Source: a bacterium
GTDB lineage: Bacteria; Bacteroidota; Ignavibacteria; Ignavibacteriales; Ignavibacteriaceae
Length of the DNA: 64,000 bases
Assembly: GCA_016716565.1 (NCBI GenBank)
Contig: JADJWC010000002.1
Span: 109,858-173,857, forward strand
Reading direction: 5' to 3'
The position numbers were made by a program, and so were the translations under genes. Below the pieces are notes generated by a model. The model was not told the DNA's origin, did not search any database, and saw only the letters and a list, made by a program, of their open reading frames with translations. Shown in pieces: positions 13,525 through 34,899 of the stretch (position 1 is the stretch's first letter; each line of letters begins with the position of its first letter).

Positions 13525-13946
13525 ATAACCTCCATTTAGTGATTAAATAAAATATTTGGTTAAAATTTTTACTTCTGGATCAGAAAGAGTTTGCGCACCT
13601 CCTTTCCCTGGTTTGATCCCTACGAATTATTGAGTGCGAAAATAGATTTTAATGGAGGGGTCTGCTGTTGTTATTGTAACAATCTCAGGCGTTTTTGTAA
13701 CAAAAAGGAAATTATTTGAAGGAAATAGATAGAAATGCACGGTAGTCGCAACCTTCAGGTTGCGCTTGTTGGTCAATCTCGAAGGCTGGGGACTACGGTG
13801 AAGGGATTACGCTAATTATATTTTCATTGCTCTCAGCTAAAACCCAGTTCAAGCCCGGCTTTTTCTATCCCCGATCTACCCGTCTCACCTCGGTGAGCCG
13901 AGGTGGAAAGATCGGGGCTAATATTTTTTAATTAAATTTTAGGGGT

Positions 13947-13976
13947 TGCAAAAATTGCCCCGACTTTCAAGTCGGG
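13947..13976 (-). terminator. rho-independent terminator downstream of the HTCS gene
   Basis: Minus-strand hairpin ccccgacttgaaagtcgggg followed by caattttt. Confidence 0.4.
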
Positions 13977-14202
13977 GAAAACTATCAAAACCACTAGCAA
14001 TTTGGCTTTAGCCTAATTCCTCAGGCTACAATATTGTAGCCCTAGACTTCAGATTGTGTTAAGATCGTTTTATGTTTACCTCAAAAGGTTCTCTCGATAC
14101 ATTTCATTACTCGAGAACCTTTTGTTCTACCTGGTTTTCGAGCTTGCCTGCTGCAAGCAGGTTTTTTCTGATGCAATCAGAAAAATTATCGAGAAAACAT
14201 TT

Positions 14203-17200
14203 CTATTTAGCGTATTCGGAAGGGCTGACATTAAAATACTTTGTGAATGCTTTGCTGAAATGTGACGGGCTGTTGTAACCGACTTCGTATGCAACCTGGG
14301 TCACGGATAATCTTTTCTCAATTAGCATCTCGGCTGCACGTTTTAACCTGTAAGCTCGTATAAATTCACCCGGCGCCTGCCCTGTTATAGCCTGTATTTT
14401 TCTGTGAAGCTGCATACGGCTTACAAATAATTCTTTTGCAAATTGTTCAGTATCGTATTCAACATCATCGAGATGTTTTTCAATAATGTCGTATGCTTTT
14501 TTAAGAAACTCATCATCAAGAGGATTTGTTGTTACTCTTTCCGGTCGTGGATGAATATCCTTACCGAATTTTTCTTTTAGTCTCCTCCTTTGCTCGATAA
14601 GATTTTTAATTCGTGTAAGAAGCTCTTTTGCATCAAATGGTTTTATAAGGTAATCATCAGCGCCGGTTTCAAGCCCTTCTATTTTATTATCGTGTGATGC
14701 TTTAGCAGTTAGAAGGATAACAGGTATATGTGAAGTGAGAAATTCTGTTTTAATTATTCTGCAGAATTCTATCCCATCCATTTCTGGCATCATTACATCA
14801 CTCACTATCAGATCAGGCATAATTTCTTTTGCTTTCTCAAGTCCCTGCTGACCGTTAACAGCTTCTTCAACTTTATAATGGCTATTGAGAACGTCTTTAA
14901 TGTATTCACGCACATCACGGTTATCTTCAACAAGCAGAATCAGATTTTTATTTTCTCTTAGGTCGTTACCAATATCTCCAGTTACCAACTCAGTTTTCTT
15001 CGTAAATACAGATTCATCAATGTAAATATTTTCGAGTTCCTGAACAGAGCTCTCAACTATTTCATCATCTTTCAGATGATTTCTTCCCAACGGAAATTCA
15101 ACAATAAACTCACTGCCGCTTGTCCCGACTTTGTCGGGATCGCCGACTTTACTATTCACACGAATACTTCCGTTGTGCAATTCGATGAGTTCCTTAATTA
15201 AAGCGAGACCTAATCCTGAACCTTCATATTCTCTTGTCTGTGAACTGTCAACCTGGTAAAACCTGTCAAACAGTTTCGGCAGTTCATCTTCGGATATTCC
15301 AATGCCGGTGTCACGAACAGAAATACAAATAAATTCTGTTACCTTTGTTTGACCCACCCCTCGCCCCTCCAATGGAGGGGATAACGATCTTTTTGAAGTC
15401 CCCTCCTCCGGAGGGGATTTAGGGGTGGGTGAATAGATACCCACCGTTATACTCCCACCTTCAGGCGTAAACTTGAATGCATTCGAAAGAAGGTTAGTGA
15501 GAATTTTTATCATCATTTCTTTGTCGAAGTAAAGCTCAATGGTATCTTGTTCCGATTCTATCTTAAGATTAATGTCTTTCCGCTCTGCAAGAGATTCAAA
15601 AGACATTACAATTCCTTTTACAAAAGGAACGATATTACTCTTCGATGCTTTAATTTTCAGCTTGCCTGCTTCCAGTCTGGAAAGATCAAGAAGCTGGTTT
15701 ATAAGATTCATCAGGCGGTGAGCATTTCTCCTGATAATTCCCGTAAGCTTTTCAATTTCATCTGCCGGAGTATCGGAAGTTAGTTTATCAATCGGACCAA
15801 GAATCAAAGTAAGCGGTGTTCTGAACTCGTGAGAAATATTTGCAAAGAAACGTGATTTCATTTTATCTGTTTCTTCTCTTTCCTGCAATTTCACTTCATC
15901 AAGCTTAACCTGGTTTTTTAATCTTAGTCGGTTCATTTCGTATCGTCTCACTGCATAAAAAATGCTTAGCACGAATAAAATGTAAAACGTGTATGCCCAC
16001 CATGTTGCCCAAAAAGGCGGCGAAATTATAATCTTAATTGATGCACCATCTTCATTCCAGACACCATCGAGATTACAGGCCTTAACTTTGAAAACATATT
16101 CGCCTGCATCAAGATTTGTATAAGTTGCATTTCTTTGAGTTCCTGCATCAATCCATTCTTCTTCATATCCTTCCAACTTGTACATATACTTGTTTCTTGA
16201 AGGATCTGCATAATGCAATCCTACATAATCAAATCGAAGATCGTTTTCATCATAAGAAAGATTTAATTCTTTAACGTTCGTTATCAATCCATCATACTCC
16301 AATTTTTCATCAGGTCTGTTAAAGAGAGACACATTGCTGATGACAACTTGCGGAGGAACCGGATCGTCTTTTATATTATCTGGATGAAACAGAATAAATC
16401 CATCAGCAGTACCAAACAACATTTCTCCATTTGAATTTTTAAAAGCACTATTGACTGCAAACCTATCGCCTTCAAAATTTTCTGAGGTCGTGTAGTTTTT
16501 TACAGTATGCGTAGAGGTATTCAACATTGATAATCCGTAATCTGTACCAATCCATAAATTGCCGTTGTTATCTTCTAATATCGACCTAACCAAATTATTA
16601 CCTAGCTTAATGGTAGAAATAAAGGATTCTGAATCTCTGTCAAATAAAGCAATACCTTGATTATAAGTCCCGACCCAGAGATTTCCACACTGATCTTCAT
16701 AAATTGCAAGTACAACAAGTTCATTACCATTAGCAAACCTAAATGATTTAAATGAATTAGTGGATGGATCAAATTTATTGAGCCCTGCATTACCTTGACT
16801 TGCGACCCAAATAAAACCATCACGAGCACGAATAATACCTTCCACTCTGTTATCACCAATACCTTGCTTATCATTTTCATCTGGAAGATATTTCAGGAAT
16901 TTACCTGTTTTCTTATTGAATTTATTTATACCGCCACCACGTGTTGTAATCCAGAGGATATCATCACCATCTGGCAACATACTACGAATTATGTTATTAC
17001 TGATTGATTCAGGATTATCAGGATTATTTGAATAGAATTTCAACTTATTACTTGCCAGATCAAATCTTACTATTCCCCTATAAGATGTACCAAGCCAGAA
17101 AACTCCAGATTTCTCTCTACAAATAAACGTTACTGTATTATCATACTTATTATTATCAAATTTGAAATTCTTAAATTCACCTGATTTTCTATTAAAACTA

Positions 17201-17979
17201 TTGAGGCCGAGCTTAGTGCCAAACCATATTGTCCTTGTTGAGTCTTCGATAATACACTTAACTACTTTGGAATCTTTATCAGCACTTTTATTAATAGCTC
17301 GATTAAAACGTTTAAACTTAAATTTATTCCCATCCCATTTATTCAATCCACTGAAATAAGAACCGATCCAAATTATCCCGGTTTTATCTTTGAAAATTGA
17401 TTGTAATAAATTGGGGTTACTAATACTAAACTGATATTCCGGATGATATTCAATGAGTTTAAAATTCTCACTAGCTGGATCAAAAATCACAAGACCGGAG
17501 TACTCTATAGATCCAAATATTAACCAGAGAAATCCATGATCGTCTTCGACCATTTTCCGAACATAATTATCATTTCTATAATTTATTGAGGGAGTTAGTT
17601 GATAGTGTTTAGAATTTAAACTTCGCAAGTCTAATTTTGTTACTCCCAATGAATGTCCAATCCATAATATTCCATCTCTTGCTTGGAGAAAAGAATTGAT
17701 TGTACCAATGGATGAAATCAGATTATTAATACGATCATCTTCTGTAAGGAGTTCTTTCTCCTTATCATAAATTAATATCCTGTTTTCAGTACCTACGTAA
17801 ATATTTCCCGATAACTTATCATAGGAAATAGAACTAACCCCTTTCGAAAGAACAGATTTATTATAATAAATACGACTGAATTTTTCCTTAACTATATTAA
17901 ATAAGTATAAACCACTATTAGCTCCAATTAAAAAATTGCCATCTTTTACCTGAAGTATACAATTTACCCAGTTTGGCAC
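14203..17979 (-). CDS. hybrid two-component system sensor histidine kinase/response regulator with AraC-type HTH (Bacteroidetes HTCS); N-terminal 64 codons are in another frame (see 17994-18188)
   Basis: Y_Y_Y/two-component-regulator propeller repeats. HisKA H-box HEFRTPLT. HATPase_c. REC (LLVEDN...DLIVSDVMMP). C-terminal AraC HTH. Carries an 80-bp repeat insertion at 15352-15431. Confidence 0.85.
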   Translation of the reverse strand: MPNWVNCILQVKDGNFLIGANSGLYLFNIVKEKFSRIYYNKSVLSKGVSSISYDKLSGNIYVGTENRILIYDKEKELLTEDDRINNLISSIGTINSFLQARDGILWIGHSLGVTKLDLRSLNSKHYQLTPSINYRNDNYVRKMVEDDHGFLWLIFGSIEYSGLVIFDPASENFKLIEYHPEYQFSISNPNLLQSIFKDKTGIIWIGSYFSGLNKWDGNKFKFKRFNRAINKSADKDSKVVKCIIEDSTRTIWFGTKLGLNSFNRKSGEFKNFKFDNNKYDNTVTFICREKSGVFWLGTSYRGIVRFDLASNKLKFYSNNPDNPESISNNIIRSMLPDGDDILWITTRGGGINKFNKKTGKFLKYLPDENDKQGIGDNRVEGIIRARDGFIWVASQGNAGLNKFDPSTNSFKSFRFANGNELVVLAIYEDQCGNLWVGTYNQGIALFDRDSESFISTIKLGNNLVRSILEDNNGNLWIGTDYGLSMLNTSTHTVKNYTTSENFEGDRFAVNSAFKNSNGEMLFGTADGFILFHPDNIKDDPVPPQVVISNVSLFNRPDEKLEYDGLITNVKELNLSYDENDLRFDYVGLHYADPSRNKYMYKLEGYEEEWIDAGTQRNATYTNLDAGEYVFKVKACNLDGVWNEDGASIKIIISPPFWATWWAYTFYILFVLSIFYAVRRYEMNRLRLKNQVKLDEVKLQEREETDKMKSRFFANISHEFRTPLTLILGPIDKLTSDTPADEIEKLTGIIRRNAHRLMNLINQLLDLSRLEAGKLKIKASKSNIVPFVKGIVMSFESLAERKDINLKIESEQDTIELYFDKEMMIKILTNLLSNAFKFTPEGGSITVGIYSPTPKSPPEEGTSKRSLSPPLEGRGVGQTKVTEFICISVRDTGIGISEDELPKLFDRFYQVDSSQTREYEGSGLGLALIKELIELHNGSIRVNSKVGDPDKVGTSGSEFIVEFPLGRNHLKDDEIVESSVQELENIYIDESVFTKKTELVTGDIGNDLRENKNLILLVEDNRDVREYIKDVLNSHYKVEEAVNGQQGLEKAKEIMPDLIVSDVMMPEMDGIEFCRIIKTEFLTSHIPVILLTAKASHDNKIEGLETGADDYLIKPFDAKELLTRIKNLIEQRRRLKEKFGKDIHPRPERVTTNPLDDEFLKKAYDIIEKHLDDVEYDTEQFAKELFVSRMQLHRKIQAITGQAPGEFIRAYRLKRAAEMLIEKRLSVTQVAYEVGYNSPSHFSKAFTKYFNVSPSEYAK
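15352..15431. repeat. GC-rich nested palindromic repeat inserted in-frame inside the HTCS HATPase domain
   Basis: cccacccct cgcccctccaatggagggg ... cccctcctccggagggg ... aggggtggg. It encodes the extra loop SPTPKSPPEEGTSKRSLSPPLEGRGVGQTKVT between GGSITVGIY and EFICISVRDTGIGI. Related to the repeats at 55137, 55657 and 57754. Confidence 0.6.
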
Positions 17980-17993
17980 TACACTAGATGTGT

Positions 17994-18188
17994 CTATAGA
18001 TAACCAAGATGATCCTGGAAAATTGACAACACAGTATTTTCAGGTAATCCGTCAGCTAATGTAAAGTGTTCAAAGATTGGTTCCGGCCAGTTTGTGTCCG
18101 CATAATTCCCCTGCGAATGAATTGTGAAATTCACCAGTAAGATAAAAAGAGAAGCCAGTCTTCCAACAGAAATAATAATTGAATTCAA
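17994..18188 (-). other. out-of-frame N-terminal segment of the HTCS (signal peptide + first propeller motif). The frame junction lies near 17990-18000.
   Basis: MNSIIISVGRLASLFILLVNF...FTLADGLPENTVLSIFQDHLGYL* is a typical HTCS N-terminus. The downstream ORF continues as WLSIDTSS... in the -1 frame. Confidence 0.75.
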
Positions 18189-27162: not shown

Positions 27163-27760
27163 TAGTCCACCATATGTTGTGAGATTAGTTTGTTAATCTA
27201 AAAATTAACACTTACTGACAATTAAAATGCCATCGAAAACTGGCGGTTTTATTTAATTTTCTTCTAATTTAATCTAAAATTTACCAGAATAAAGGGAGTT
27301 AATTGACTACTTGTAAAGGTCAGAGACATCAATTCTACTAAAGAAGAGATGATGTAGGGTAGCTTAATTGGGTTCTTTGAATGAGGGATCCGGTTAGGTT
27401 TTGAGTAGCCAACTGCCTTTTTTGTCGGGGAACAAAATTTGTTGACTAAAGAAAAATATTTTTATTCATACCACAACTTGATTCTATTCTAATAAATGAT
27501 TATTTAAGGAATAGCAAGAGGGCAAATTTTTATAAGTGTGTCATAAACCTTTTAACCTTTCCCTCGCAAATAAATAAATTTTAATTGCTCTTCAAAGAGG
27601 AGCACTTTCTTTTATCATTCCAAGTGAGGCAAATAAAGATTGGAGTATAAATGAAACTCGCTATGATCCTTTGCTTAGTATTTCTGGAAACCACTTTTGT
27701 TGGTTCCGGAGTGGGTGCAAGCTTAATCATATTTGCATTAAGCTAAATATCCTTTTAGAC

Positions 27761-27807
27761 AAAAAAATCTGACCAGCAAAAATCAATCTCGGGATTTTCT
27801 GGTCAGA
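27761..27807 (-). terminator. rho-independent terminator at the end of the rtc/tRNA transcription unit
   Basis: Hairpin tctgaccag...ctggtcaga. A7 on the plus strand gives U7 after the hairpin on the minus strand, immediately downstream of the rtcB stop. Confidence 0.5.
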
Positions 27808-27851
27808 ATTTGTCTTCGATTAAGTATTCGGATTTAACCCAAATTATTATT

Positions 27852-29108
27852 CTATCCTTTAACAACACCGAGTGGTCTTAGTTTAACGATAGGTTTTATA
27901 AGATCTAATTCAGATTGAATTACCTCATCAATGTTTTTATAGGCAAGAGGTGACTCACCAAGATCAAACAATTCCCCACCATTTATTTTCTTTCCAAACT
28001 TTTTGAGTTTACCCCATCGATCATATACAACGTCACCCATTGCTTTATCGCATTCTTTTGCAGTAAGATTTCTGCAAGCATCCATTCTTCCCATTTTTCT
28101 GCCGGCACCGTGAGAACAGGATTGAAAAGATTCTTCATTACCTAATCCTTCAACAATGTAAGAAGAAGTCCCCATCGAACCGGGAATTATTCCCTTCTCA
28201 CCTTTCTTAGCAGATGTTGCACCTTTCCGATGAATCCAAACGGATTTTTCAAAATGATTTTCCAATGCTGCGTAATTATGATGGATATTTGTTTCTTCAA
28301 GAAAATTTACATCACCAAGATTTATTAGAATGGCTTGTTTAAATTCTTCCATCATTAATCTTCTGTTTTCTCTTGCATATTCCAGAGCAAAATTCATATC
28401 TCTAATGTAATCATTTCCTTCATCCATCTCTGTTCTAAAAAATGCAAGATCTTTATCCGGTAGTTCATCATTGTATTTATCATTTATTTCCTGAGCAAGT
28501 TTATGATAATATGAGGCGATCCTATTACCAATATTTCTTGAACCTGAATGTAGCATCAGCCAGAGGTATCCATCCTGTGAAATTTGCATTTCAATAAAAT
28601 GATTTCCGCCGCCTAAAGTTCCAAGATTTTTGAATGCTAATGTCCAGGTAGCTTTATCCAACCATGCTGGCAATTTTGGATTCTTGAAGTCATCAACTTC
28701 TTCACCAATACCAAGAGTTTTTAAGTAAGCAGGAAACCCATCCCATGAGTGTGGATGTTTGTGTGCATTTCCTTCACCGACCGGTACATTTGCTTTTATA
28801 TCATTAAGGATTTTTCTAATTAAAGATTTATCAGTTAAATCATTTGCAGGAAAATTGGTTTTAACTGCACCCATTCCACATCCAATATCAACACCGACTG
28901 CATTCGGTATGATTGCATTTTCGGTTGCAATAACTCCACCAATCGGCATTCCATATCCGACATGAGCATCGGGCATTAACGCAATATGATTTAAAGTAAC
29001 AGGATGATTAGCAAGATTTTCAGCCTGTTCAAGTGCACCTAGTTCAAGTGTTTCGCACCAGGATTTTATCGGTATTTTAAGATTTTCATCTTCTTTGATC
29101 CATTTCAT
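27852..29108 (-). CDS. rtcB: RNA-splicing ligase RtcB (3'-phosphate/5'-OH RNA ligase)
   Basis: GGGNHFIEMQ, HSGSRNIGN, SCSHGAGRKMGR motifs. Start taken at MKWIKEDE (ATG 29106-29108, RBS AGAGGA). The ORF-track extension to 29192 overlaps tRNA-Pro and is rejected. Confidence 0.9.
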   Translation of the reverse strand: MKWIKEDENLKIPIKSWCETLELGALEQAENLANHPVTLNHIALMPDAHVGYGMPIGGVIATENAIIPNAVGVDIGCGMGAVKTNFPANDLTDKSLIRKILNDIKANVPVGEGNAHKHPHSWDGFPAYLKTLGIGEEVDDFKNPKLPAWLDKATWTLAFKNLGTLGGGNHFIEMQISQDGYLWLMLHSGSRNIGNRIASYYHKLAQEINDKYNDELPDKDLAFFRTEMDEGNDYIRDMNFALEYARENRRLMMEEFKQAILINLGDVNFLEETNIHHNYAALENHFEKSVWIHRKGATSAKKGEKGIIPGSMGTSSYIVEGLGNEESFQSCSHGAGRKMGRMDACRNLTAKECDKAMGDVVYDRWGKLKKFGKKINGGELFDLGESPLAYKNIDEVIQSELDLIKPIVKLRPLGVVKG

Positions 29109-29123
29109 AGTTTTCCTCTTTAA

Positions 29124-29198
29124 TACTTTATTGTCTGTGTGGTAGGACTCGAACCTACATTTTCCCGGCTCCAAACCGGCACGGATAACCAATTCCCG
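29124..29198 (-). tRNA. tRNA-Pro (anticodon UGG)
   Basis: Hand-folded cloverleaf. Acceptor CTGTGTG/CACACAG. T-arm GTAGG-TTCGAGT-CCTAC. Anticodon loop TTTGGAG. Confidence 0.7.
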
Positions 29199-29253
29199 TC
29201 ACACACAGATATAATTTAGTAAACGTATTATCTATTAAAAATTCCAATTATAA

Positions 29254-29324
29254 AATTTTATTGCGTGACGTGTGGGATTTGAACCCCGACTCCTGATAGA
29301 CAGTCAGGTGTGTTTCCGTTACAC
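29254..29324 (-). tRNA. tRNA-Asp (anticodon GUC)
   Basis: Anticodon arm CCTGA-CTGTCTA-TCAGG. T-loop TTCAAAT. Acceptor/T-stem register is ambiguous by hand. Confidence 0.6.
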
Positions 29325-29354
29325 TACACATCACTTTTATAGATATTCTATTAA

Positions 29355-29428
29355 TATTTAATTGTCCCACCGATAGGATTCGAACCTACATCATTTCGGT
29401 TAAAAGCCGAAAGCATTGCTCCTTTATG
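29355..29428 (-). tRNA. tRNA-Lys (anticodon UUU)
   Basis: D-arm GCAT-AAAGGAGCA-ATGC. Anticodon arm TTCGG-CTTTTAA-CCGAA. T-loop TTCGAAT. Confidence 0.8.
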
Positions 29429-29442
29429 CTACGGTGGAATAA

Positions 29443-29515
29443 TGTCTTTAAGTACTCTCTGCAGGAATCGAACCCACATCTAACTGCTTAGAAGACAGCT
29501 GCATTATCCTTTATG
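29443..29515 (-). tRNA. tRNA-Arg (anticodon UCU)
   Basis: Acceptor GCTCTCT/AGAGAGT. Anticodon loop CTTCTAA. T-loop TTCGATT. Confidence 0.7.
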
Positions 29516-29520
29516 CTAAG

Positions 29521-29592
29521 AGAGCGTTGGAATCGTTATAAGGATTTGAACCTTAATCCCCCGACTCGTAAGCGGGTATCTTTTCCATTAGA
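29521..29592 (-). tRNA. tRNA-Arg (anticodon ACG)
   Basis: Acceptor GTCGTTA/TAACGAT. Anticodon loop TTACGAG. T-arm TAAGG-TTCAAAT-CCTTA. Confidence 0.7.
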
Positions 29593-29595
29593 CGA

Positions 29596-29668
29596 TAACG
29601 ACTTGAGCCAACGCAAGGATTCGAACCCTGTTCTCCGGTTTACAAAACCGGTGCATCAACCTGTAATG
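29596..29668 (-). tRNA. tRNA-Thr (anticodon UGU), aberrant acceptor stem
   Basis: Anticodon arm CCGGT-TTTGTAA-ACCGG is perfect. Acceptor 5' GCCTTCG vs 3' CGTTGGC gives two adjacent U:U mismatches. The 5' end sits inside the perfect palindrome AATGCCTTCGAAGCATT. Confidence 0.55.
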
Positions 29669-29673
29669 CTTCG

Positions 29674-29757
29674 AAGGCATTCGTACAAGTAGAAGGATTC
29701 GAACCTTCAAGCCCTCAAGGGCAGTAGTTTCTAAGACTACCGTGTATACCAATTCCA
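29674..29757 (-). tRNA. tRNA-Leu (anticodon UAG), class II with long variable arm
   Basis: Anticodon arm GTAGT-CTTAGAA-ACTAC. Variable hairpin GCCC-TTGA-GGGC. T-arm GAAGG-TTCGAAT-CCTTC. Confidence 0.8.
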
Positions 29758-29763
29758 CCATAC

Positions 29764-29835
29764 TTGCATTCAGGGTGTGAGCTAAGATTTGAACTTAGTC
29801 CTATTGGGTCACAGCCAATTATGCTGCCATTACAC
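29764..29835 (-). tRNA. tRNA-His (anticodon GUG) with G-1; acceptor has two internal mismatches
   Basis: Anticodon arm ATTGG-CTGTGAC-CCAAT. Extra 5' G pairs with C73. Acceptor 5' GTGTTTG vs 3' CTCACAC gives U:C and U:U mismatches. Confidence 0.6.
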
Positions 29836-29908
29836 CACAAACACCATAATAATGTCGTTAAAGGAAATGAATACCTATCTTAAAAATTTTTAAATCAATC
29901 TATCTAAG

Positions 29909-29982
29909 AACGATAAAGTCCTACGGGTAGGATTCGCACCCACTATCTCCCGGATATAAGCCGGGTGCATTTACTAATTATG
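29909..29982 (-). tRNA. tRNA-Ile (anticodon UAU), atypical: no GG in D-loop, T-loop TGCGAAT
   Basis: Acceptor CCTACGG/CCGTAGG is perfect. Anticodon arm CCCGG-CTTATAT-CCGGG. D-loop AATTAGTAA. Confidence 0.6.
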
Positions 29983-29983
29983 C

Positions 29984-30055
29984 TTCCGTAGGGTAGCGGG
30001 TATTGGATTCGAACCAATGACCTTCAGCTTATGAAACTGATGAGCTGCCGCTGCT
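29984..30055 (-). tRNA. tRNA-Met or tRNA-Ile2 (anticodon CAU; elongator type)
   Basis: Acceptor GGCGGGT/ACCCGCT. D-arm GAGC-AGCGGCA-GCTC. Anticodon loop TTCATAA. Lacks the initiator features (C1:A72 mismatch, GGG/CCC anticodon stem). Confidence 0.75.
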
Positions 30056-30065
30056 CAAACCCGCC

Positions 30066-30140
30066 AAATGATTAGTGGAAAGGGTAGGAATCGAACCCAC
30101 GCAGTCAACGGGCTTCAACCGCTTGCTCTACCTGCTGAGC
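30066..30140 (-). tRNA. tRNA-Phe (anticodon GAA)
   Basis: Acceptor GGAAAGG/CCTTTCC. D-arm GCTC-AGCAGGTAGA-GC. Anticodon loop TTGAAGC. Confidence 0.85.
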
Positions 30141-30147
30141 TACCTTT

Positions 30148-30219
30148 CCATATTTTGCAGTCCCGGCAGGATTTGAACCTACATCTTTGGGTTCAAAGCC
30201 CAATGTGCTTACCATTGCA
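30148..30219 (-). tRNA. tRNA-Gln (anticodon UUG)
   Basis: Anticodon arm TTGGG-CTTTGAA-CCCAA. D-arm GTGC-AATGGTAA-GCAC. T-loop TTCAAAT. Confidence 0.8.
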
Positions 30220-30223
30220 CCAC

Positions 30224-30299
30224 AGAACTATTGAGTCGGTAAAGGGAGTTGAACCCTCACTTCAAGTTTGGAAGACTTACGTGCTGGTTCCGTTAAACA
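30224..30299 (-). tRNA. tRNA-Gly (anticodon UCC), enlarged D-loop
   Basis: Acceptor GTCGGTA/TACCGAC is perfect. Anticodon loop CTTCCAA. D-region is 21 nt. Confidence 0.7.
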
Positions 30300-30322
30300 C
30301 TATACCGACGGATTGAAAAATT

Positions 30323-30393
30323 GATTCTCTGCTGAACAGGCAGGACTCGAACCTGCATCATTCCGGTTAACAGCCGGGCGCTTCACCATTGAG
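30323..30393 (-). tRNA. tRNA-Asn (anticodon GUU)
   Basis: Acceptor TGAACAG/CTGTTCA is perfect. Anticodon loop CTGTTAA. T-arm GCAGG-TTCGAGT-CCTGC. Confidence 0.75.
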
Positions 30394-30414
30394 CTACTGT
30401 TCAATTAATTTTAT

Positions 30415-31446
30415 TCAAGCTTTATCACCAATTCTTATCTGATATTGCTTCTCATTAATTTTATCGACGCTGATATTTATTGCTAAAAATTTTTTCACAA
30501 CCTCAATGATTGTCATTGTATGTAAAGTTGGTTCAGTCGTAATAAAACTTCCGCCACCAGCAAGTGCCATCGGGATTATCAATTGATCAGCCAGATATTT
30601 ATACACCGGAACATCAGCGTCCACATATTCAGAATATTCTCTTAATACATCATCGATTACATTTTTCAACTTATAATTTTTTCTTCCGAATCCGGTAAAG
30701 GTTTCTGTTGAATTATCATTTTCATCGATGAGAATGATAACATTTCCCGGTCCTGGCGAATCAACCATTTTTGCTATGCAGTTTACTTCATTCCAACCCA
30801 GCTTTTTTTGAATGATCTTCATCTCACTTTTACCAATGCTTTCCGGAATTAGTGAGGAGTATGCAATTGCTTTCCTGTTCAGCTGGGATCCTTTTTCAAT
30901 GATTTCGATCTGGTTCAGTTCTTTAACAGGTTTAACATTTACATCAATCTTTCCACCTCCTACCGGAAAGAATCCGAATTTCCCGATATTAATATTTACT
31001 ACAGGTCCCATTTTTCTCAACTGGTTAAAAAAAGAATAATTCAGAAAATCTACTGGCGGAGAAAATTCATTATGGGTTCCACCGCCTAAACTAATGTTCG
31101 ATTCACCATTCGCAAGCATAAGAACGGGAACAACAGTTTGAAGCACAAGAGTTGTACTTCCTGCAGTTCCAATATCAAAATTGTAATTACCGGATTTAAT
31201 TTTTGCGGGGTCAAAGTATAATTTCAAAGAACTAATTTCAGCACCTCGAACTCGAGCATCACAAATTTCTGCGGCAGCTTTTACTGCAGTGAGATGTTGC
31301 CTCATTAAGCCGGGCTTTTTTCTTCCGGCTCTTATATTCTTAATAACTACCGGAAATTGAGTATACATTGATAAGGAAAGAGACGACCTGAGAATCTGGC
31401 CGCCTCCTTCTCCGAATGAACCATCTATTTCAATGAGCTTTTTCAT
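30415..31446 (-). CDS. rtcA: RNA 3'-terminal phosphate cyclase RtcA
   Basis: N-terminal IDGSFGEGGGQILRSSLSLS...IRAGRKKPGLMRQHL and C-terminal LADQLIIPMALAGGG match the RtcA family end to end. Confidence 0.88.
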   Translation of the reverse strand: MKKLIEIDGSFGEGGGQILRSSLSLSMYTQFPVVIKNIRAGRKKPGLMRQHLTAVKAAAEICDARVRGAEISSLKLYFDPAKIKSGNYNFDIGTAGSTTLVLQTVVPVLMLANGESNISLGGGTHNEFSPPVDFLNYSFFNQLRKMGPVVNINIGKFGFFPVGGGKIDVNVKPVKELNQIEIIEKGSQLNRKAIAYSSLIPESIGKSEMKIIQKKLGWNEVNCIAKMVDSPGPGNVIILIDENDNSTETFTGFGRKNYKLKNVIDDVLREYSEYVDADVPVYKYLADQLIIPMALAGGGSFITTEPTLHTMTIIEVVKKFLAINISVDKINEKQYQIRIGDKA

Positions 31447-31448
31447 AC

Positions 31449-32552
31449 TTAAAGTAAGTTAACAATTTTGTCAGTTAACCCTTTATCACCAAGCATAATT
31501 TTCAGGTCAGTTCTTGCAGCGATCTTTTCAAGAACTTCCAGCTCTTTGAGCTTCATAAGTACTGGATTGCTCTCGAGCATTTTAGCAGTATTAGCCTGGT
31601 TTCTCATTGCGGCAGTCTCCTCTCTTCTGGAGATGAGATTTGCCTCTGCTTCTTTTTTAGCAAGGATAACTTTGTTCAGTATCTCTTTCATATCACCAGG
31701 AAGAATTATATCCCTGATTCCATGACTCAGAACCTCAATACCGTACTTAATCATTCTTGCTGCTAGTCTTTCCTCAAGCTCTTTCGCAACAGAGTCCTTT
31801 TCAGCAAGTATCGCTTCAAGTTCTCTTGTTCCGATTACTTCTCTAAGAACAAGCTGAGCTTCTCTGTAGAGTGCCTGAGTAGAATCTTCAACCATTGATA
31901 CAGATTTGTATGCATCTACAATTCTGTAGTTAACAAGGGTATTTAGTCTTAAAGAAACTTTATCAGCAGTCATAATTTCTTGTCCGGAAATATCGCTTGA
32001 CTTTACTCTCAGATCTACCTGATAAAGTTTTACTTTGGAAATACCTATCCAGAATGCATATCTGCCTGGTTTGAGATTCCCTATGAAGTTTCCATTCTCG
32101 AAGTACAGACCAATATGGTTGTCTTCTACAATGAATTCATTTAGTACAGCTTTCGATGCACCTGCATCCATAATTATATCCAGTTTTTCATGGACAAATT
32201 GTGGGCTTTTAACATCGATCACTTCCACTAAAACTTCACGACCAACTTTCCAAAGAGCATAAATACCAGAGTAAAGAATTCTGTCAAATCTTCCGTCAAT
32301 CCAAATGACTGCACGTTGATTATCTTTTAGATCAATTACTTCTAATTCATCTTTATTAATTTTATCGGACTTGATTATTGATTCGAGTTCCTTATGGACA
32401 AGCCACGCCTCTTTTACAGAAACAATATCAAGTGCTTCATCTTTAAATGGATCTGTAAACCAGTATGAACCTTCGTTGAGTATTTCAACAAATTGTTCAT
32501 CCACAAAGTACAGTCCTCTTTCGTGTGCAAGGATTCTTCTTTTACCAAACAT
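31449..32552 (-). CDS. cytoplasmic SPFH/band-7 (slipin-like) domain protein with an unrecognised ~170-aa N-terminal domain
   Basis: C-terminal half matches stomatin/HflC-like SPFH (IRDIILPGDMKE, AEANLISRREETAAMRNQANTAKML). No TM segment. Stop is 3 nt before the rtcA start. Confidence 0.6.
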   Translation of the reverse strand: MFGKRRILAHERGLYFVDEQFVEILNEGSYWFTDPFKDEALDIVSVKEAWLVHKELESIIKSDKINKDELEVIDLKDNQRAVIWIDGRFDRILYSGIYALWKVGREVLVEVIDVKSPQFVHEKLDIIMDAGASKAVLNEFIVEDNHIGLYFENGNFIGNLKPGRYAFWIGISKVKLYQVDLRVKSSDISGQEIMTADKVSLRLNTLVNYRIVDAYKSVSMVEDSTQALYREAQLVLREVIGTRELEAILAEKDSVAKELEERLAARMIKYGIEVLSHGIRDIILPGDMKEILNKVILAKKEAEANLISRREETAAMRNQANTAKMLESNPVLMKLKELEVLEKIAARTDLKIMLGDKGLTDKIVNLL

Positions 32553-32639
32553 GACTTATCTCCTTTTTATTTTTGTTAATCAGTTAATTAAAAGGGCTAA
32601 TTGAAGAAAGACAACTAACTCAACACATTTCTTCTGCGG

Positions 32640-32813
32640 AGCGTTACTTAAGCAATTCAAAGTTGTATCGTATCTGCAAACTCAAATTCAACAACACAAC
32701 TTTTAAAGAGCGGTATCCGCACGCTGCAAGGCAGAATACTAATGCTGCAAACAGAATTATGCCTCCCCAATAATTTCTGTTTGCTGCTAAATCGCTCATC
32801 CTTCCTCAAAAAG
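32640..32813 (-). CDS. small ORF (57 aa) with a hydrophobic core, between the tRNA-like gene and the SPFH gene
   Basis: MSDLAANRNYWGGIILFAALVFCLAACGYRSLKVVLLNLSLQIRYNFELLK*. Preceded by GAGGAAGG. Below the ORF-track size cutoff. Speculative. Confidence 0.2.
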
Positions 32814-32838
32814 CCAAAGAACAGTTCACCTTTACAGG

Positions 32839-32914
32839 GTGCATGAGCGGGAATCGAACCCGCGACCTATAGATCATTAGTCTATTGCTCTTCCAATTGA
32901 GCTATCATTGTGCA
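32839..32914 (-). ncRNA. aberrant tRNA-like RNA (tRNA mimic or pseudogene). Canonical D- and T-arms, acceptor stem with a 3-nt bulge, anticodon loop CUAAUGA (formally AAU with G37).
   Basis: D-arm TAGCTCAATTGGAAGAGCA. T-arm GCGGG-TTCGATT-CCCGC. 3' TCATGCA-C. 5' TGCA[CAA]TGA. Sits ~100 nt downstream of a TGGCAC -24 element. Confidence 0.5.
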
Positions 32915-33020
32915 GTTTCAACATCGTCTTTAGAACCCGCAACCGGAACATTAAATGATAATTGATTACTCAAACCAGATAATGCCGACCGGTCAAATAT
33001 CAATTCTGCATAAATTATAA

Positions 33021-33037
33021 GCCAATGAGTGTGCCAG
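33021..33037 (-). promoter_or_regulatory. candidate sigma54 (-24/-12) promoter for the minus-strand rtc unit; imperfect -12 element
   Basis: Minus-strand TGGCAC-ACTCA-TTGGC (consensus TGGCAC-N5-TTGCA). Divergent from rtcR, as at the E. coli rtcBA-rtcR locus. A GACCGGTC palindrome lies 25 nt downstream. Confidence 0.35.
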
Positions 33038-33163
33038 CACTTCGGCTGAAAACTTAACTGGTTTATTTTTAATGACTTATGGGAATTTTTGACCTAACTG
33101 CTTGACGACATTATTAATAATCACTATAATTAACTATAATATTTTAGATTTAAAGATAAAACT

Positions 33164-33346
33164 ATGAAGAACATACTTTTCAGTTTGTTGGGAACAACAT
33201 TAGATAAATCTTTCAAGCAAGATAGATGGGAAAGATGGCGGCCATCCGTTGCAATTTGTCAACACGAGGATTTAATAATCGATAAATACCATTTAATTTA
33301 TCCGTCAAACCATCTTCGCCTTGCAGAGAATTATAGAGGATATTAA
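33164..33346 (+). CDS. rtcR: RtcR N-terminal segment (start of CARF domain), frame-shifted relative to the rest of rtcR
   Basis: MKNILFSLLGTTLDKSFKQDRWERWRPSVAICQHEDLIIDKYHLIY matches the E. coli RtcR N-terminus (GTVLD...QRWSKWRPTLCLCQQESLVIDRLELLH). Confidence 0.8.
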   Translation: MKNILFSLLGTTLDKSFKQDRWERWRPSVAICQHEDLIIDKYHLIYPSNHLRLAENYRGY

Positions 33347-34751
33347 AATTGTATCTCCTGAAACAGAGGTAATTCCACATGAAATTGATTTTAAAGATCC
33401 ATGGGATTTTGAAGAAGTGTACACTGGTCTTCTTGATTTCCTCGAGCACTTTGATTTTCATAAAGTGGAGGATCGATATCTTTTCAATATTACTACCGGT
33501 ACCCACGTTGCTCAAATATGTATTTACCTTCTAACTGAATCACGAAGATTTCCAGGTAATATTATACAAACATCTCCTGCTCACGGAAATGCTGCAGGAA
33601 CTTATTCTATCATAGATTTAGATTTATCGAAGTATGATAAAATAGCAGCACGATTTGCGAAAGAAATAAAAGATGATATCGCATTTCTAAAATCCGGGAT
33701 TGAAACAAAAAATAAAAAGTTTAATGAACTTATTGATAGAATAGAATTAGTCGCCTTAAGAACTAAGGATCCAATTTTGCTGACCGGTCCGACTGGAGCT
33801 GGAAAATCCTTCCTTGCAAGAAGAATTTATGAACTTAAAAAGTTGAAAGCTTCCGTCAAAGGTCAATTTGTTGAAATAGACTGCGGAACAATTCGCGGCG
33901 ATGCAGCTATGTCCGCTTTGTTTGGGCACAAGAAAGGTGCATTCACTGGTGCAATCAGCGACAGACCTGGTTTGTTAAAAACTGCTGATAAAGGAATTGT
34001 TTTTCTCGATGAGATTGGCGAACTCGGCCTAGACGAGCAAGTAATGCTTTTAAGAGCGATAGAAGATAAAAAGTTTTTTAGTGTGGGTGCAGACAAAGAA
34101 TCAACAAGTGATTTTCAATTGATCTGTGGAACGAACAGAAATCTTCAGCAAAGAGTAAAAGATGGATTGTTTAGAGAAGATCTACTTGCAAGAATAAACC
34201 TTTGGACATTCAATTTGCCGGGATTAAAAGATCGTCCTGAAGATATCGAACCAAATCTCGATTATGAATTAAACCGGTATGCAGATAAAACAGGTGATGT
34301 AGTGCGATTCAACAAAGAAGCACGAGATGCATTCCTGAATTTTGCAGTTTCAAAAGATGCAAAATGGCTAGCTAACTTCAGAGATTTGAATGGTGCAATC
34401 ATCAGGTTATGCACACTTGCACTTGGAGGAAGGATTACACTGGACATTCTTGAAGAAGAAATTAAAAGATTAAAATCATTATGGAAGACAGAAAAAATTG
34501 AATCTGAGGATAGGTTGATAAATAATTTTAGGCATATAATAGACATAACAAGAATCGATTTGTTTGAACAAATACAGATTGAGGGTGTTTTAAAAGTCTG
34601 TCGAGAATCAAAAAGTCTATCTGATGCAGGAAGAAAACTGTTTGCCATTTCACGCCTATCAAAGGCATCTTCAAATGATAGTGATAGATTAAAAAAATTT
34701 TTAGTCAAGTACGGATTGACCTGGGAAATGACCCAAAACAATTATATCTGA
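33321..34751 (+). CDS. rtcR: RtcR, CARF-domain sigma54-dependent transcriptional activator of the rtc operon (the frame continues upstream to ~33286 as FIRQTIFALQRIIEDI...)
   Basis: SPETEV...DFKDPWDFEEVY...TGTHVAQICIYLL (CARF). Walker A GPTGAGKS. GAFTGA. ESKSLSDAGRKLF...LTWE C-terminus. Colinear with E. coli RtcR throughout. Confidence 0.88.
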   Translation: MQRIIEDIKIVSPETEVIPHEIDFKDPWDFEEVYTGLLDFLEHFDFHKVEDRYLFNITTGTHVAQICIYLLTESRRFPGNIIQTSPAHGNAAGTYSIIDLDLSKYDKIAARFAKEIKDDIAFLKSGIETKNKKFNELIDRIELVALRTKDPILLTGPTGAGKSFLARRIYELKKLKASVKGQFVEIDCGTIRGDAAMSALFGHKKGAFTGAISDRPGLLKTADKGIVFLDEIGELGLDEQVMLLRAIEDKKFFSVGADKESTSDFQLICGTNRNLQQRVKDGLFREDLLARINLWTFNLPGLKDRPEDIEPNLDYELNRYADKTGDVVRFNKEARDAFLNFAVSKDAKWLANFRDLNGAIIRLCTLALGGRITLDILEEEIKRLKSLWKTEKIESEDRLINNFRHIIDITRIDLFEQIQIEGVLKVCRESKSLSDAGRKLFAISRLSKASSNDSDRLKKFLVKYGLTWEMTQNNYI

Positions 34752-34785: not shown

Positions 34786-34826
34786 TTAAAAAAACCCTCA
34801 GAATTTTATCATCTTGAGGGTTTTTG
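34786..34826. terminator. bidirectional rho-independent terminator (A-run, hairpin ccctcag...cttgaggg, T-run)
   Basis: Lies between the rtcR stop and the 3' end of the convergent tRNA-Thr. Confidence 0.55.
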
Positions 34827-34899
34827 AGCTGGTGAACGGATTCGAACCGCCGACCGGCTGATTACAAATCAGCTGCTCTACCAGCTGAGCTACACCAGC
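34827..34899 (-). tRNA. tRNA-Thr (anticodon UGU), canonical
   Basis: Acceptor GCTGGTG/CACCAGC is perfect. D-arm GCTC-AGCTGGTAGA-GC. Anticodon arm GCTGA-TTTGTAA-TCAGC. T-loop TTCGAAT. Confidence 0.85.

What the first reader, a model, noticed from the sequence alone, without database searches (positions are those of the whole stretch)
33164..33400. rtcR is split by a frameshift inside its CARF sensor domain
**Seen in sequence.** The first 60 codons (33164-33346) match the RtcR N-terminus (QDRWERWRPSVAICQHEDLIIDKYHLIY). The remainder (33321-34751) is colinear with E. coli RtcR, but in the +1 frame. The frames overlap around cat ctt cgc ctt gca / c atc ttc gcc ttg cag: ...PSNHLRL versus FALQRIIEDIKIVSPETEV. 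A single-nucleotide indel near 33300-33320 would restore one ORF of ~530 aa. The alternative is a 476-aa product starting at TTG 33321 with no obvious RBS, which would lack the first third of the CARF domain.

**Inference.** The cause could be a sequencing or assembly error, genuine inactivation or truncation of the sensor domain, or programmed slippage. Truncation might de-repress or deregulate the operon. The HTCS N-terminal frame break at 17990 also contains CATCTT, which is probably coincidence.
Basis: seen in the sequence. Interest (0 to 1): 0.5.

Follow-up and report, generated by a model that had tools for sequence, protein, structure and literature searches.

The report
Private two-base deletion splitting rtcR
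The RNA-repair regulator gene rtcR is broken here by the loss of two bases from a short AGAGAGA run; an otherwise identical copy of the same strain and all relatives are intact, so this is most likely a consensus error or a very recent mutation, not a designed feature.

Summary
The split is real in the sequence. ORF1 (33164-33346) and ORF2 (33321-34751) match the Pfam RtcR model at positions 2-57 and 56-183, and ORF2 then carries a complete sigma-54 AAA+ module.

Frame 0 matches orthologs up to Glu55 (33326-33328). Alignment with five orthologous loci shows the window lacks 2 nt: intact GCAGAGAGAATT versus window GCAGAGAATT, at 33325-33330. Restoring them gives 529 aa, the length of the six closest full-length orthologs (88-93% identity, all single ORFs).

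An independent public-run contig (Logan SRR35430745, 2156 nt) matches the window with 0 mismatches apart from this 2-nt gap, and it carries the intact allele. ORF2 shows no further decay. The AGAGAGA run is not conserved among orthologs, and no slippery motif is present.

Verdict: an ordinary RtcR gene with a private 2-bp deletion.
- Consensus or assembly error: about 0.6.
- Very recent slippage mutation: about 0.35.
- Programmed frameshift or conserved split architecture: effectively excluded.

Interest is low. The context is more notable: the divergent rtc operon contains 14 tRNA genes between rtcA and rtcB, plus a tRNA-like leader, and this is conserved in related Ignavibacteriaceae.

The parts
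33102..33130 (+). Sigma-70-like promoter of rtcR (TTGACG-17-TATAAT, 11 of 12 matches)
   Evidence: Consensus scan. The sequence is conserved in the closest orthologous locus, L028, and identical in the same-strain contig L031. Function is inferred, not tested.
33164..33328 (+). rtcR codons 1-55, the in-frame 5' part (strand 1, two short helices, strand 2 and the first half of the following long helix of the CARF domain)
   Evidence: Pfam RtcR model positions 2-57. Matches orthologs through ...PSNHLRLAE. Secondary structure comes from an AlphaFold model of the repaired protein: strands at 2-8 and 41-46, helix at 48-64, with pLDDT about 81-94 over this region.
33325..33330 (+). Lesion: AGAGAA where intact alleles have AGAGAGAA, i.e. 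one AG/GA unit (2 nt) is missing
   Evidence: A 2-nt gap in the window against five orthologous loci and against same-strain contig L031. By blastn, L031 versus the window gives 2156 nt, 0 mismatches and 1 gap of 2 nt.
33329..33346 (+). Out-of-frame tail of ORF1 (NYRGY plus TAA stop)
   Evidence: these residues have no counterpart in any ortholog.
33327..34751 (+). rtcR codons 56-529 in the shifted frame: the rest of CARF, an AAA+ sigma-54 interaction domain (GPTGAGKS, GAFTGA, DEIGE) and the C-terminal region. The frame is open from 33297. Possible restart codons are TTG 33321, GTG 33417 and GTG 33465.
   Evidence: Pfam. All columns invariant across 52 RtcR sequences are kept in the repaired protein. 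Start-codon list with upstream sequences.
33022..33037 (-). -24/-12-type (sigma-54-like) promoter candidate for the divergent operon: CTGGCACACTCATTGG
   Evidence: TGGCAyAyTsATTG is conserved in four Ignavibacteriaceae loci. The -12 element reads TTGG/TTGA, not the consensus TTGC, and a strict TTGC-type pattern did not match here. This is an inferred assignment.
32843..32908 (-). tRNA-like element inside a conserved leader of about 480 nt, upstream of the SPFH gene
   Evidence: Rfam tRNA, 56.1 bits, model positions 4-67. ARAGORN does not call it. The leader is highly conserved in L028, L029 and L003.
31449..32552 (-). SPFH/Band 7 protein gene, first gene of the divergent operon
   Evidence: Pfam Band_7, E=7e-30. 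Same position in L028, L029 and L021.
30415..31446 (-). rtcA (RNA 3'-terminal phosphate cyclase)
   Evidence: Pfam RTC, E=6e-78. 100% identical over 1418 nt to Logan contig L033.
29133..30403 (-). Array of 14 tRNA genes between rtcA and rtcB
   Evidence: ARAGORN and Rfam. Arrays of 14 to 22 tRNAs at the same place in L029, L030, L003 and L002.
27852..29192 (-). rtcB (RNA ligase). The listed TTG start overlaps tRNA-Pro, so the true start is probably about 28 codons further in.
   Evidence: Pfam RtcB, E=3e-107, match starting at residue 56. The L029 ortholog is 418 aa.

Best explanation
This is a standard RtcR gene: a CARF sensor, an AAA+ sigma-54 activator domain and a C-terminal DNA-binding region, sitting divergent to an rtc RNA-repair operon. 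Its reading frame is interrupted only because this assembly has GCAGAGAATT where the organism's gene reads GCAGAGAGAATT. I judge the missing AG unit to be most likely a consensus (sequencing, polishing or assembly) error at a short dinucleotide repeat. On that reading the cell makes a normal 529-aa RtcR. The deletion itself, its absence from relatives and from a same-strain contig, and the lack of any other decay are shown. That the cause is technical and not mutational is inferred.
For: - **Same-strain contig is intact.** Logan contig L031 (run SRR35430745) matches window 31261-33414 with 0 mismatches over 2156 nt, apart from the 2-nt gap. It encodes an uninterrupted N-terminus...HLRLAERIIEDIKIV.... 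An error predicts exactly this pattern.
- **Repair restores the ortholog length.** Adding the 2 nt gives 529 aa, the length of the six closest full-length orthologs (P0001-P0003 and P0005-P0007, 88-93% identity; P0004, at 92%, is 532 aa). All of these are single ORFs.
- **No other damage.** All 474 downstream codons are open. Every column invariant across 52 RtcR sequences is retained, including Walker A, GAFTGA and Walker B. The promoter, the operon genes and the leader are intact.
- **Plausible error context.** The lesion is the loss of one unit of a 3-unit dinucleotide repeat, where repeat-count mistakes arise (inference).
- **A second unexplained frame break lies in the same 64 kb.** It is in the N-terminus of a hybrid two-component sensor (HTCS) gene, at about 17990. 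This hints at a non-zero indel error rate.
- **No independent record of the deleted allele.** None of its three plausible products is on record in public assemblies.
Against: - No reads are available, so a real mutation cannot be excluded.
- The rest of the window looks clean. ORFs of 1562, 1348, 1258, 1074 and 1020 aa are intact. Two other same-strain contig segments show no discrepancy. Six other AGAGAGA runs are present without obvious damage. The assembly is therefore not generally error-prone.
- For a short-read assembly a 2-nt deletion error would be unusual.
- Strand slippage at GAGAGA is also a natural mutational mechanism.
- L031 comes from a run whose relation to this assembly is unknown.
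Confidence: 0.6

Rival explanations
1. The deletion is a genuine, very recent replication-slippage mutation (GAGAGA to GAGA) in the sequenced clone or population, and it inactivates rtcR. Translation ends after 60 aa. Without its enhancer-binding activator the sigma-54-type promoter stays silent, so SPFH, rtcA, the tRNA array and rtcB are not induced by RNA damage.
For: - The lesion has the classic slippage signature, loss of one repeat unit.
- The window is otherwise high quality.
- Strain-specific frameshift pseudogenes are common in bacteria (general knowledge).
- No Shine-Dalgarno sequence precedes any in-frame restart codon.
- The lost residues 1-55 include two core strands of the CARF Rossmann-like sheet.
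Against: - A contig identical at every other one of 2156 positions carries the intact allele. The mutation would have to be extremely young.
- No secondary decay is seen.
- The deleted allele is not found in any other public assembly searched.
Confidence: 0.3
2. The deletion is real and translation re-initiates inside the gene. TTG 33321 lies 23 nt upstream of the ORF1 stop, so termination-reinitiation could occur there; GTG 33417 and GTG 33465 are alternatives. The product would be an RtcR without an intact CARF domain and would be constitutively active. This would be a natural counterpart of the laboratory RtcR-deltaN allele, locking the repair operon and its tRNA array on.
For: - RtcR lacking CARF is constitutively active in vitro and in vivo (PMC9650030).
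- Transposon insertions that truncate the CARF-coding region make the Salmonella operon constitutive (PMC7790460).
- The AAA+ module and the C-terminal region of ORF2 are fully intact.
- ORF1 and ORF2 overlap by 26 nt, a geometry compatible with translational coupling.
Against: - This carries all the doubts about whether the lesion is real.
- TTG without a Shine-Dalgarno sequence is a poor start.
- A CARF remnant missing two core strands and the first half of the long helix may misfold and destabilise the protein.
- The arrangement is not seen in any relative.
Confidence: 0.06
3. The split is a programmed event (ribosomal +1/-2 frameshift or transcriptional slippage) or a conserved two-piece architecture of RtcR in this lineage.
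For: Only that the two frames overlap and both are open across 33297-33343.
Against: - The 15 homologues aligned across the junction, including the eight closest, and the same-strain contig are single ORFs there. The 120 listed homologues are all of full RtcR length, 516-576 aa, with the RtcR domain on record.
- The GAGAGA run is absent from L029, L003, L001 and L002.
- No known slippery motif, in-frame stop-codon context or homopolymer lies in the overlap.
- A +1 shift would yield a protein lacking the Arg56 that is present in the eleven closest orthologs aligned.
Confidence: 0.02

Closest known systems
RtcR of Escherichia coli / Salmonella enterica (sigma-54 enhancer-binding activator of the rtcBA RNA-repair operon; CARF - AAA+ - DNA-binding domain)
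   Same: - Same Pfam architecture (PF06956 RtcR followed by Sigma54_activat).
- GAFTGA and Walker motifs are present.
- The gene is divergently oriented to an operon encoding RtcA and RtcB, with a -24/-12-like promoter.
- About 60% identity to proteins named 'RNA repair transcriptional activator RtcR' by NCBI.
   Different: - The frame is interrupted by a 2-nt deletion at codon 55/56 in this assembly.
- The controlled operon is larger: tRNA-like leader, SPFH gene, rtcA, 14 tRNA genes, rtcB.
- The -12 element is TTGG, not TTGC.
- No Pfam HTH match for the C-terminus at E<0.01.
Laboratory RtcR-deltaN / delta-CARF alleles and transposon truncations of the CARF-coding region (constitutively active; Genschik et al. 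1998 as cited in PMC7790460; PMC9650030)
   Same: If the lesion is real and translation restarts, the product would likewise have an intact AAA+ and DNA-binding part without a functional CARF repressor domain.
   Different: - The laboratory alleles remove the whole CARF domain (E. coli residues 1-186 in the constructs of PMC9650030) or are driven by foreign expression signals.
- Here only residues 1-55 are lost, a crippled CARF remnant stays attached, and no good restart signal exists.
- Activity has not been tested.
Programmed frameshift genes (prfB +1 at CUU UGA C; dnaX -1 at A AAA AAG)
   Same: Two overlapping reading frames that together encode one protein.
   Different: No conserved shift site, no slippery motif and no stimulatory context. 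Orthologs and the same strain elsewhere are in-frame. This is not a member.
[quoted passage not shown] Relevant to the surrounding operon, not to the frameshift.
   Same: - An array of 14-22 supernumerary-looking tRNA genes, with atypical D-arms and an Ile-UAU species, is physically linked to an RtcB ligase gene.
- This suggests spare tRNAs deployed together with tRNA repair.
   Different: - Here the array sits inside the rtcA-rtcB operon, next to a divergent RtcR/sigma-54-type regulator.
- In Anabaena the array is a separate operon under the TrcR repressor.
- I found no description of the RtcR-linked arrangement in the searchable literature.

Membership tests
RtcR (sigma-54-dependent activator of the rtc operon) | N-terminal RtcR-type CARF domain (Pfam PF06956), complete | tested here: met
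   Model positions 2-57 lie on ORF1 and 56-183 on ORF2, so the domain is complete and colinear once the 2 nt are restored. The AlphaFold model of the repaired protein gives a Rossmann-like alternation of strands and helices over residues 1-151 at high confidence.
RtcR (sigma-54-dependent activator of the rtc operon) | Central AAA+ sigma-54 interaction domain with a GAFTGA loop and Walker A/B motifs | tested here: met
   PF00158, E=1e-47. GPTGAGKS, KGAFTGA and FLDEIGE are visible in the translation. Best solved-structure matches are NtrC-family AAA+ domains, E=2e-43.
RtcR (sigma-54-dependent activator of the rtc operon) | C-terminal helix-turn-helix DNA-binding domain | tested here: inconclusive
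   No Pfam HTH family reaches E<0.01. The model predicts helices at 467-525, and the region is conserved among RtcR homologues.
RtcR (sigma-54-dependent activator of the rtc operon) | Adjacent, divergently transcribed operon encoding RtcA and/or RtcB behind a -24/-12 promoter | tested here: met
   rtcA and rtcB lie on the opposite strand. TGGCAC-N5-TTGG is conserved in four loci. The -12 GC is imperfect, so the promoter assignment is inferred.
RtcR (sigma-54-dependent activator of the rtc operon) | One uninterrupted reading frame of about 530 codons | tested here: not met
   Not met in the window sequence as given. It is met across the break (the first 84 codons, to the contig end) in same-strain contig L031 and over the full length in the closest orthologs aligned; the 120 listed homologues are 516-576 aa.
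Programmed ribosomal frameshift / conserved split gene | The frameshift or split is conserved in orthologs | tested here: not met
   The 15 homologues aligned and five orthologous DNA loci are in-frame at the junction. So is the same-strain contig.
Programmed ribosomal frameshift / conserved split gene | A recognisable slippery site in the frame-overlap zone | tested here: not met
   The overlap zone 33297-33343 was read directly. It has no X XXY YYZ heptamer, no CUU UGA-type site and no long homopolymer. The GAGAGA run is absent in L029, L003, L001 and L002.
Decaying pseudogene | Several lesions (extra stops or indels, loss of conserved residues) or relaxed constraint | tested here: not met
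   There is a single lesion. 474 codons remain open and all invariant columns are retained. There are zero substitutions against the same-strain contig.
Sequencing / consensus artefact | Raw reads of the source sample disagree with the assembled base string | not testable with these tools
   No reads are available. The only proxy is an independent assembly of public run SRR35430745, which carries the intact allele.

The most novel reading that the evidence does not exclude
The 2-bp deletion is real, and ribosomes terminating ORF1 re-initiate at TTG 33321. The result is a CARF-crippled RtcR that is constitutively active. It would be a naturally arising counterpart of the laboratory RtcR-deltaN allele, keeping an RNA-repair operon with its embedded 14-tRNA spare set permanently switched on in one strain of an Ignavibacteriaceae population.
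Probability: 0.05. Interest if true: 0.5.

Novelty: already known. Interest (0 to 1): 0.1.

Why it matters
**The frameshift itself**
- It matters mainly for annotation. The gene should be annotated as rtcR carrying a 2-nt deletion (frameshifted or possible error). It should not be annotated as two genes or as a novel truncated regulator.
- It should not be used as evidence for programmed recoding.
- If reads prove it real, it would be a within-population loss or deregulation of the RNA-repair response. That is of modest interest.

**The surrounding locus**
- RtcR is thought to sense damaged tRNA fragments.
- Here it sits next to an operon that carries a near-complete spare tRNA set and a tRNA-like leader, conserved across Ignavibacteriaceae. 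tRNA genes also occur in the RtcR-adjacent operon of one planctomycete locus and next to rtcR in two sphingomonad loci.
- This suggests a 'repair plus replace' response to tRNA damage that could be tested.

Tried and rejected
**Searches that found nothing**
- Exact-product look-ups for the deleted allele: the 60-aa ORF1, the 476-aa ORF2 and the 444-aa product from GTG 33417. None is on record.
- A scan of JGI metagenome contigs with a pattern that accepts either allele (N{0,2} at the lesion): 0 hits, so no further same-strain copy.
- Cluster look-up of the 84-aa intact N-terminal fragment: not in the collection.
- The Burroughs & Aravind 2016 survey of RNA-repair operons could not be read, because it is not held. 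Prior description of tRNA genes in rtc operons could not be checked there.

**The second frame break (HTCS N-terminus, about 17990), used as a test of assembly error rate**
- The neighbouring 609-aa protein is not on record.
- The 200-aa HTCS N-terminus has no homologue at E<=1e-5.
- Pfam gives no hit for the 64-aa piece alone.
- The break therefore remains unresolved.

**Ideas rejected**
My first repaired query used it and reached 93% identity, but the ortholog alignment showed the true junction is LRLAE|RIIED.
- The CATCTT link between the two breaks. The hexamer occurs 63 times against 58 expected, and it is not at the rtcR lesion.
- A strict sigma-54 pattern (TGGCAC-N4-6-TTGSW) did not hit the intergenic region. 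The conserved element has TTGG(C)/TTGA.
- AGAGAGA as a general collapse hotspot. Six other copies exist in the window without obvious damage, so the motif does not discriminate between error and mutation.
Full report
**1. The observation**

The window has two overlapping ORFs on the + strand: 33164-33346 (60 aa) and 33321-34751 (476 aa), in different frames.
- Pfam places ORF1 on positions 2-57 of the RtcR model PF06956 (E=1.9e-17).
- ORF2 falls on positions 56-183 of the same model (E=6e-51).
- A complete sigma-54 interaction AAA+ domain follows (E=1e-47), then an AAA lid.

The two pieces are exactly colinear with one RtcR protein, so the split is real in the sequence and not a chance resemblance. 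The 100-aa ORF on the opposite strand (33213-33515) is most likely just a shadow of this coding region; it was not examined further.

**2. Where and what the lesion is**

A search with a provisionally repaired protein returned thousands of RtcR homologues.
- The seven closest are from Ignavibacteriaceae-type metagenomic contigs, at 88-93% identity. Six are 529 aa and one is 532 aa.
- All are single ORFs.
- They read ...YHLIYPSNHLRLAE-RIIEDIKIVSPETEV... across the junction.

Frame 0 of the window is therefore still correct through Glu55 (GAG, 33326-33328). Only the last five ORF1 codons (NYRGY) are out of frame. The shifted frame becomes the correct one at Arg56 (AGA, 33327-33329).

DNA alignment with five orthologous loci shows a 2-nt gap in the window at this spot. 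Intact genes have GCN-GAG/GAA-AGA-ATT. The window has GCAGAGAATT.
- Restoring two bases gives 1590 nt, i.e. 529 aa, the ortholog length.
- CATCTT (33311-33316) lies upstream of the lesion. It is an ordinary hexamer here, with 63 copies against 58 expected.

**3. The lesion is private to this assembly**

The flanking SPFH protein was looked up by exact sequence. This returned Logan contig L031 from run SRR35430745.
- L031 aligns to window 31261-33414 over 2156 nt, with 0 mismatches and a single 2-nt gap.
- At the site it reads CTTGCAGAGAGAATT, against CTTGCAGAGAATT in the window.
- It encodes an uninterrupted RtcR N-terminus of 84 codons up to the contig end.

The ancestral allele of this very strain is thus GCA GAG AGA ATT. 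The window has lost one AG/GA unit from an AGAGAGA run.

A second run (SRR20682006, L033) is 100% identical to the window over 1418 nt of rtcA and the SPFH gene. A third (SRR33423584, L032) is 99.7% identical. Neither reaches the lesion.

No public assembly carries a gene product of the deleted allele. A JGI metagenome scan that accepts either allele found nothing.

**4. State of the gene apart from the lesion**

- All 474 downstream codons are open.
- The repaired protein keeps every column that is invariant across 52 RtcR sequences, including GPTGAGKS, GAFTGA and DEIGE.
- A near-consensus sigma-70-like promoter (TTGACG-17-TATAAT, 33102-33130) precedes the ATG.
- An AlphaFold model of the repaired protein has mean pLDDT 82.8 and about 81-94 over the first 150 residues. 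It shows a CARF fold with strands at 2-8, 41-46, 69-74, 104-109, 133-140 and 143-151.
- The break falls in the middle of helix 48-64. ORF1 therefore carries strand 1, strand 2 and half of that helix. ORF2 would lack two core strands of the sheet.
- In-frame restart codons are TTG 33321, GTG 33417 and GTG 33465. None has a Shine-Dalgarno-like sequence upstream. The SPFH gene in the same locus does have one (GGAG).

**5. Explanations**

(a) *Consensus or assembly error (my best estimate, about 0.6).*
- It predicts exactly what is seen: one isolated repeat-unit miscount in an otherwise perfect gene, with the intact allele in an independent assembly of the identical strain.
- A second unexplained frame break (HTCS N-terminus, about 17990) in the same 64 kb is compatible with a low but non-zero indel error rate.
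- Against it, the rest of the window is clean. ORFs of up to 1562 aa are intact, there are no other discrepancies in about 3 kb of same-strain contigs, and six other AGAGAGA runs are unharmed.
- I cannot see reads or the sequencing platform.

(b) *Genuine, very recent slippage mutation (about 0.35 in all).*
- The likeliest result is a null allele. Sigma-54 promoters need their activator, so the operon would be uninducible.
- A less likely result (about 0.06) is re-initiation at TTG 33321 giving a CARF-crippled, constitutively active RtcR. RtcR lacking CARF is constitutively active (PMC9650030). Transposon insertions truncating the CARF region make the Salmonella operon constitutive (PMC7790460).

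(c) *Programmed frameshift or conserved split (0.02 or less).*
- It is contradicted by in-frame orthologs and the same-strain contig.
- The GAGAGA run is not conserved.
- No slippery motif is present.

**6. Comparison with what is known**

By domain content and genomic context the gene is a member of the RtcR family. The only defining feature not met in the window is an uninterrupted frame. Nothing about the split is a new kind of system. It is an annotation or quality issue, or at most a strain-level mutation.

**7. Context worth recording (not part of the finding)**

The divergent operon on the minus strand runs in this order:
- a conserved -24/-12-like element (33022-33037);
- a leader of about 480 nt, highly conserved in four genomes, containing a tRNA-like element (32843-32908; Rfam tRNA 56 bits, model positions 4-67);
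- an SPFH/Band 7 gene;
- rtcA;
- 14 tRNA genes (29133-30403);
- rtcB.

Related Ignavibacteriaceae loci have 14-22 tRNAs at the same place, in largely the same order. The array segments are 88-93% identical to those of L003 and L002, whereas the flanking genes are 75-80% identical.

The array tRNAs have atypical D-arms and include an Ile-UAU species. Their Thr-UGU copy differs strongly from the stand-alone tRNA-Thr-UGU at 34826-34899.

tRNA genes also sit in or next to RtcR loci elsewhere:
- a Sedimentisphaerales locus (L021: tRNAs interleaved with SPFH, an RNase T-like gene and rtcA);
- sphingomonads (L007, L013: a tRNA-Pro in the divergent leader; L007 also has a YrlA Y-RNA).

Long tRNA arrays co-regulated with rtcB are described for cyanobacteria under a different regulator (PMC8421152, PMC10272220). 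I found no description of arrays inside RtcR-controlled operons in the searchable literature. The key survey of RNA-repair operons could not be read.

**8. Verdict**

This is an ordinary rtcR with a private 2-bp deletion, most probably technical in origin. Interest is low (0.1). The decisive test is a read pile-up or allele k-mer count at 33323-33332.

Noticed in passing
window 29133-30403 (minus strand), between rtcA (30415-31446) and rtcB (27852-29192): An array of 14 tRNA genes lies inside the rtc RNA-repair operon: Pro-UGG, Asp, Lys, Arg-UCU, Arg-ACG, Thr-UGU, Leu-UAG, His, Ile-UAU, Met, Phe, Gln, Gly-UCC, Asn. Rfam scores run from 34 to 70 bits, the D-arms are atypical, and none except possibly Arg-ACG has an encoded CCA end. 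Related Ignavibacteriaceae loci (L029, L030, L003, L002) have 14-22 tRNAs at the same place, conserved better than the flanking genes. This suggests a spare tRNA set co-expressed with the RNA ligase after tRNA damage. The nearest described case is the cyanobacterial L-arrays co-regulated with rtcB (PMC8421152). I found no report of the RtcR-linked arrangement.
   Followed up: partly
window 32553-33040 (minus strand); tRNA-like core at 32843-32908: A leader of about 480 nt between the -24/-12-like promoter and the SPFH gene is very highly conserved across four genomes. It contains a tRNA-like element with D-, anticodon- and T-arms but no normal acceptor end. Rfam scores it as tRNA at 56 bits, and ARAGORN does not call it. 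It recalls the tRNA-like module of YrlA Y RNAs in the Salmonella rsr-yrlBA-rtcBA operon, but it does not hit the YrlA model and no Ro60 gene is seen in the operon.
   Followed up: partly
L021 2141-4596; L007 5511-5586 and 3368-3482; L013 5499-5575; L024 398-2935: tRNA genes also lie next to rtcR in other phyla. In a Sedimentisphaerales locus they are interleaved with an SPFH gene, an RNase T-like exonuclease gene and rtcA. In two sphingomonads a tRNA-Pro-UGG sits just upstream of rtcR on the opposite strand, and one of them also has a YrlA Y-RNA. Three tRNAs lie upstream of rtcR in a Kangiellaceae contig, where the neighbouring genes were not examined. The association of RtcR loci with tRNA genes may be general.
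   Followed up: partly
window 17979-18188 (minus strand): A second frame break lies at the N-terminus of a hybrid two-component sensor (main ORF 14203-17979). A 64-aa ORF has a signal-peptide-like start and ends ...LSIFQDHLGYL*. The main frame is open from 18039. The N-terminal 200 aa have no database homologue at E<=1e-5, so the nature of the lesion (indel size, error or real) could not be determined.
   Followed up: partly
window 29133-29208 versus 27852-29192: The longest rtcB ORF (TTG 29192, 446 aa) overlaps tRNA-Pro. The Pfam match starts at residue 56 and the ortholog in L029 is 418 aa, so the real rtcB start is probably about 28 codons downstream of the listed one.
   Followed up: no
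window 29208-29263 and 29844-29918, compared with L029 3993-4068 and L003 2450-2532: Relative to its relatives, the window's array lacks the tRNA-Glu between Pro and Asp. It also has a 73-nt gap where L003 carries tRNA-Tyr. Array content therefore varies between close species (14, at least 18, and 22 genes).
   Followed up: no
window 13542-14203 and 27192-27852: Two stretches of about 660 nt have no ORF of 100 aa or more in any frame. One lies downstream of the HTCS gene and the other downstream of rtcB. Their content was not examined.
   Followed up: no
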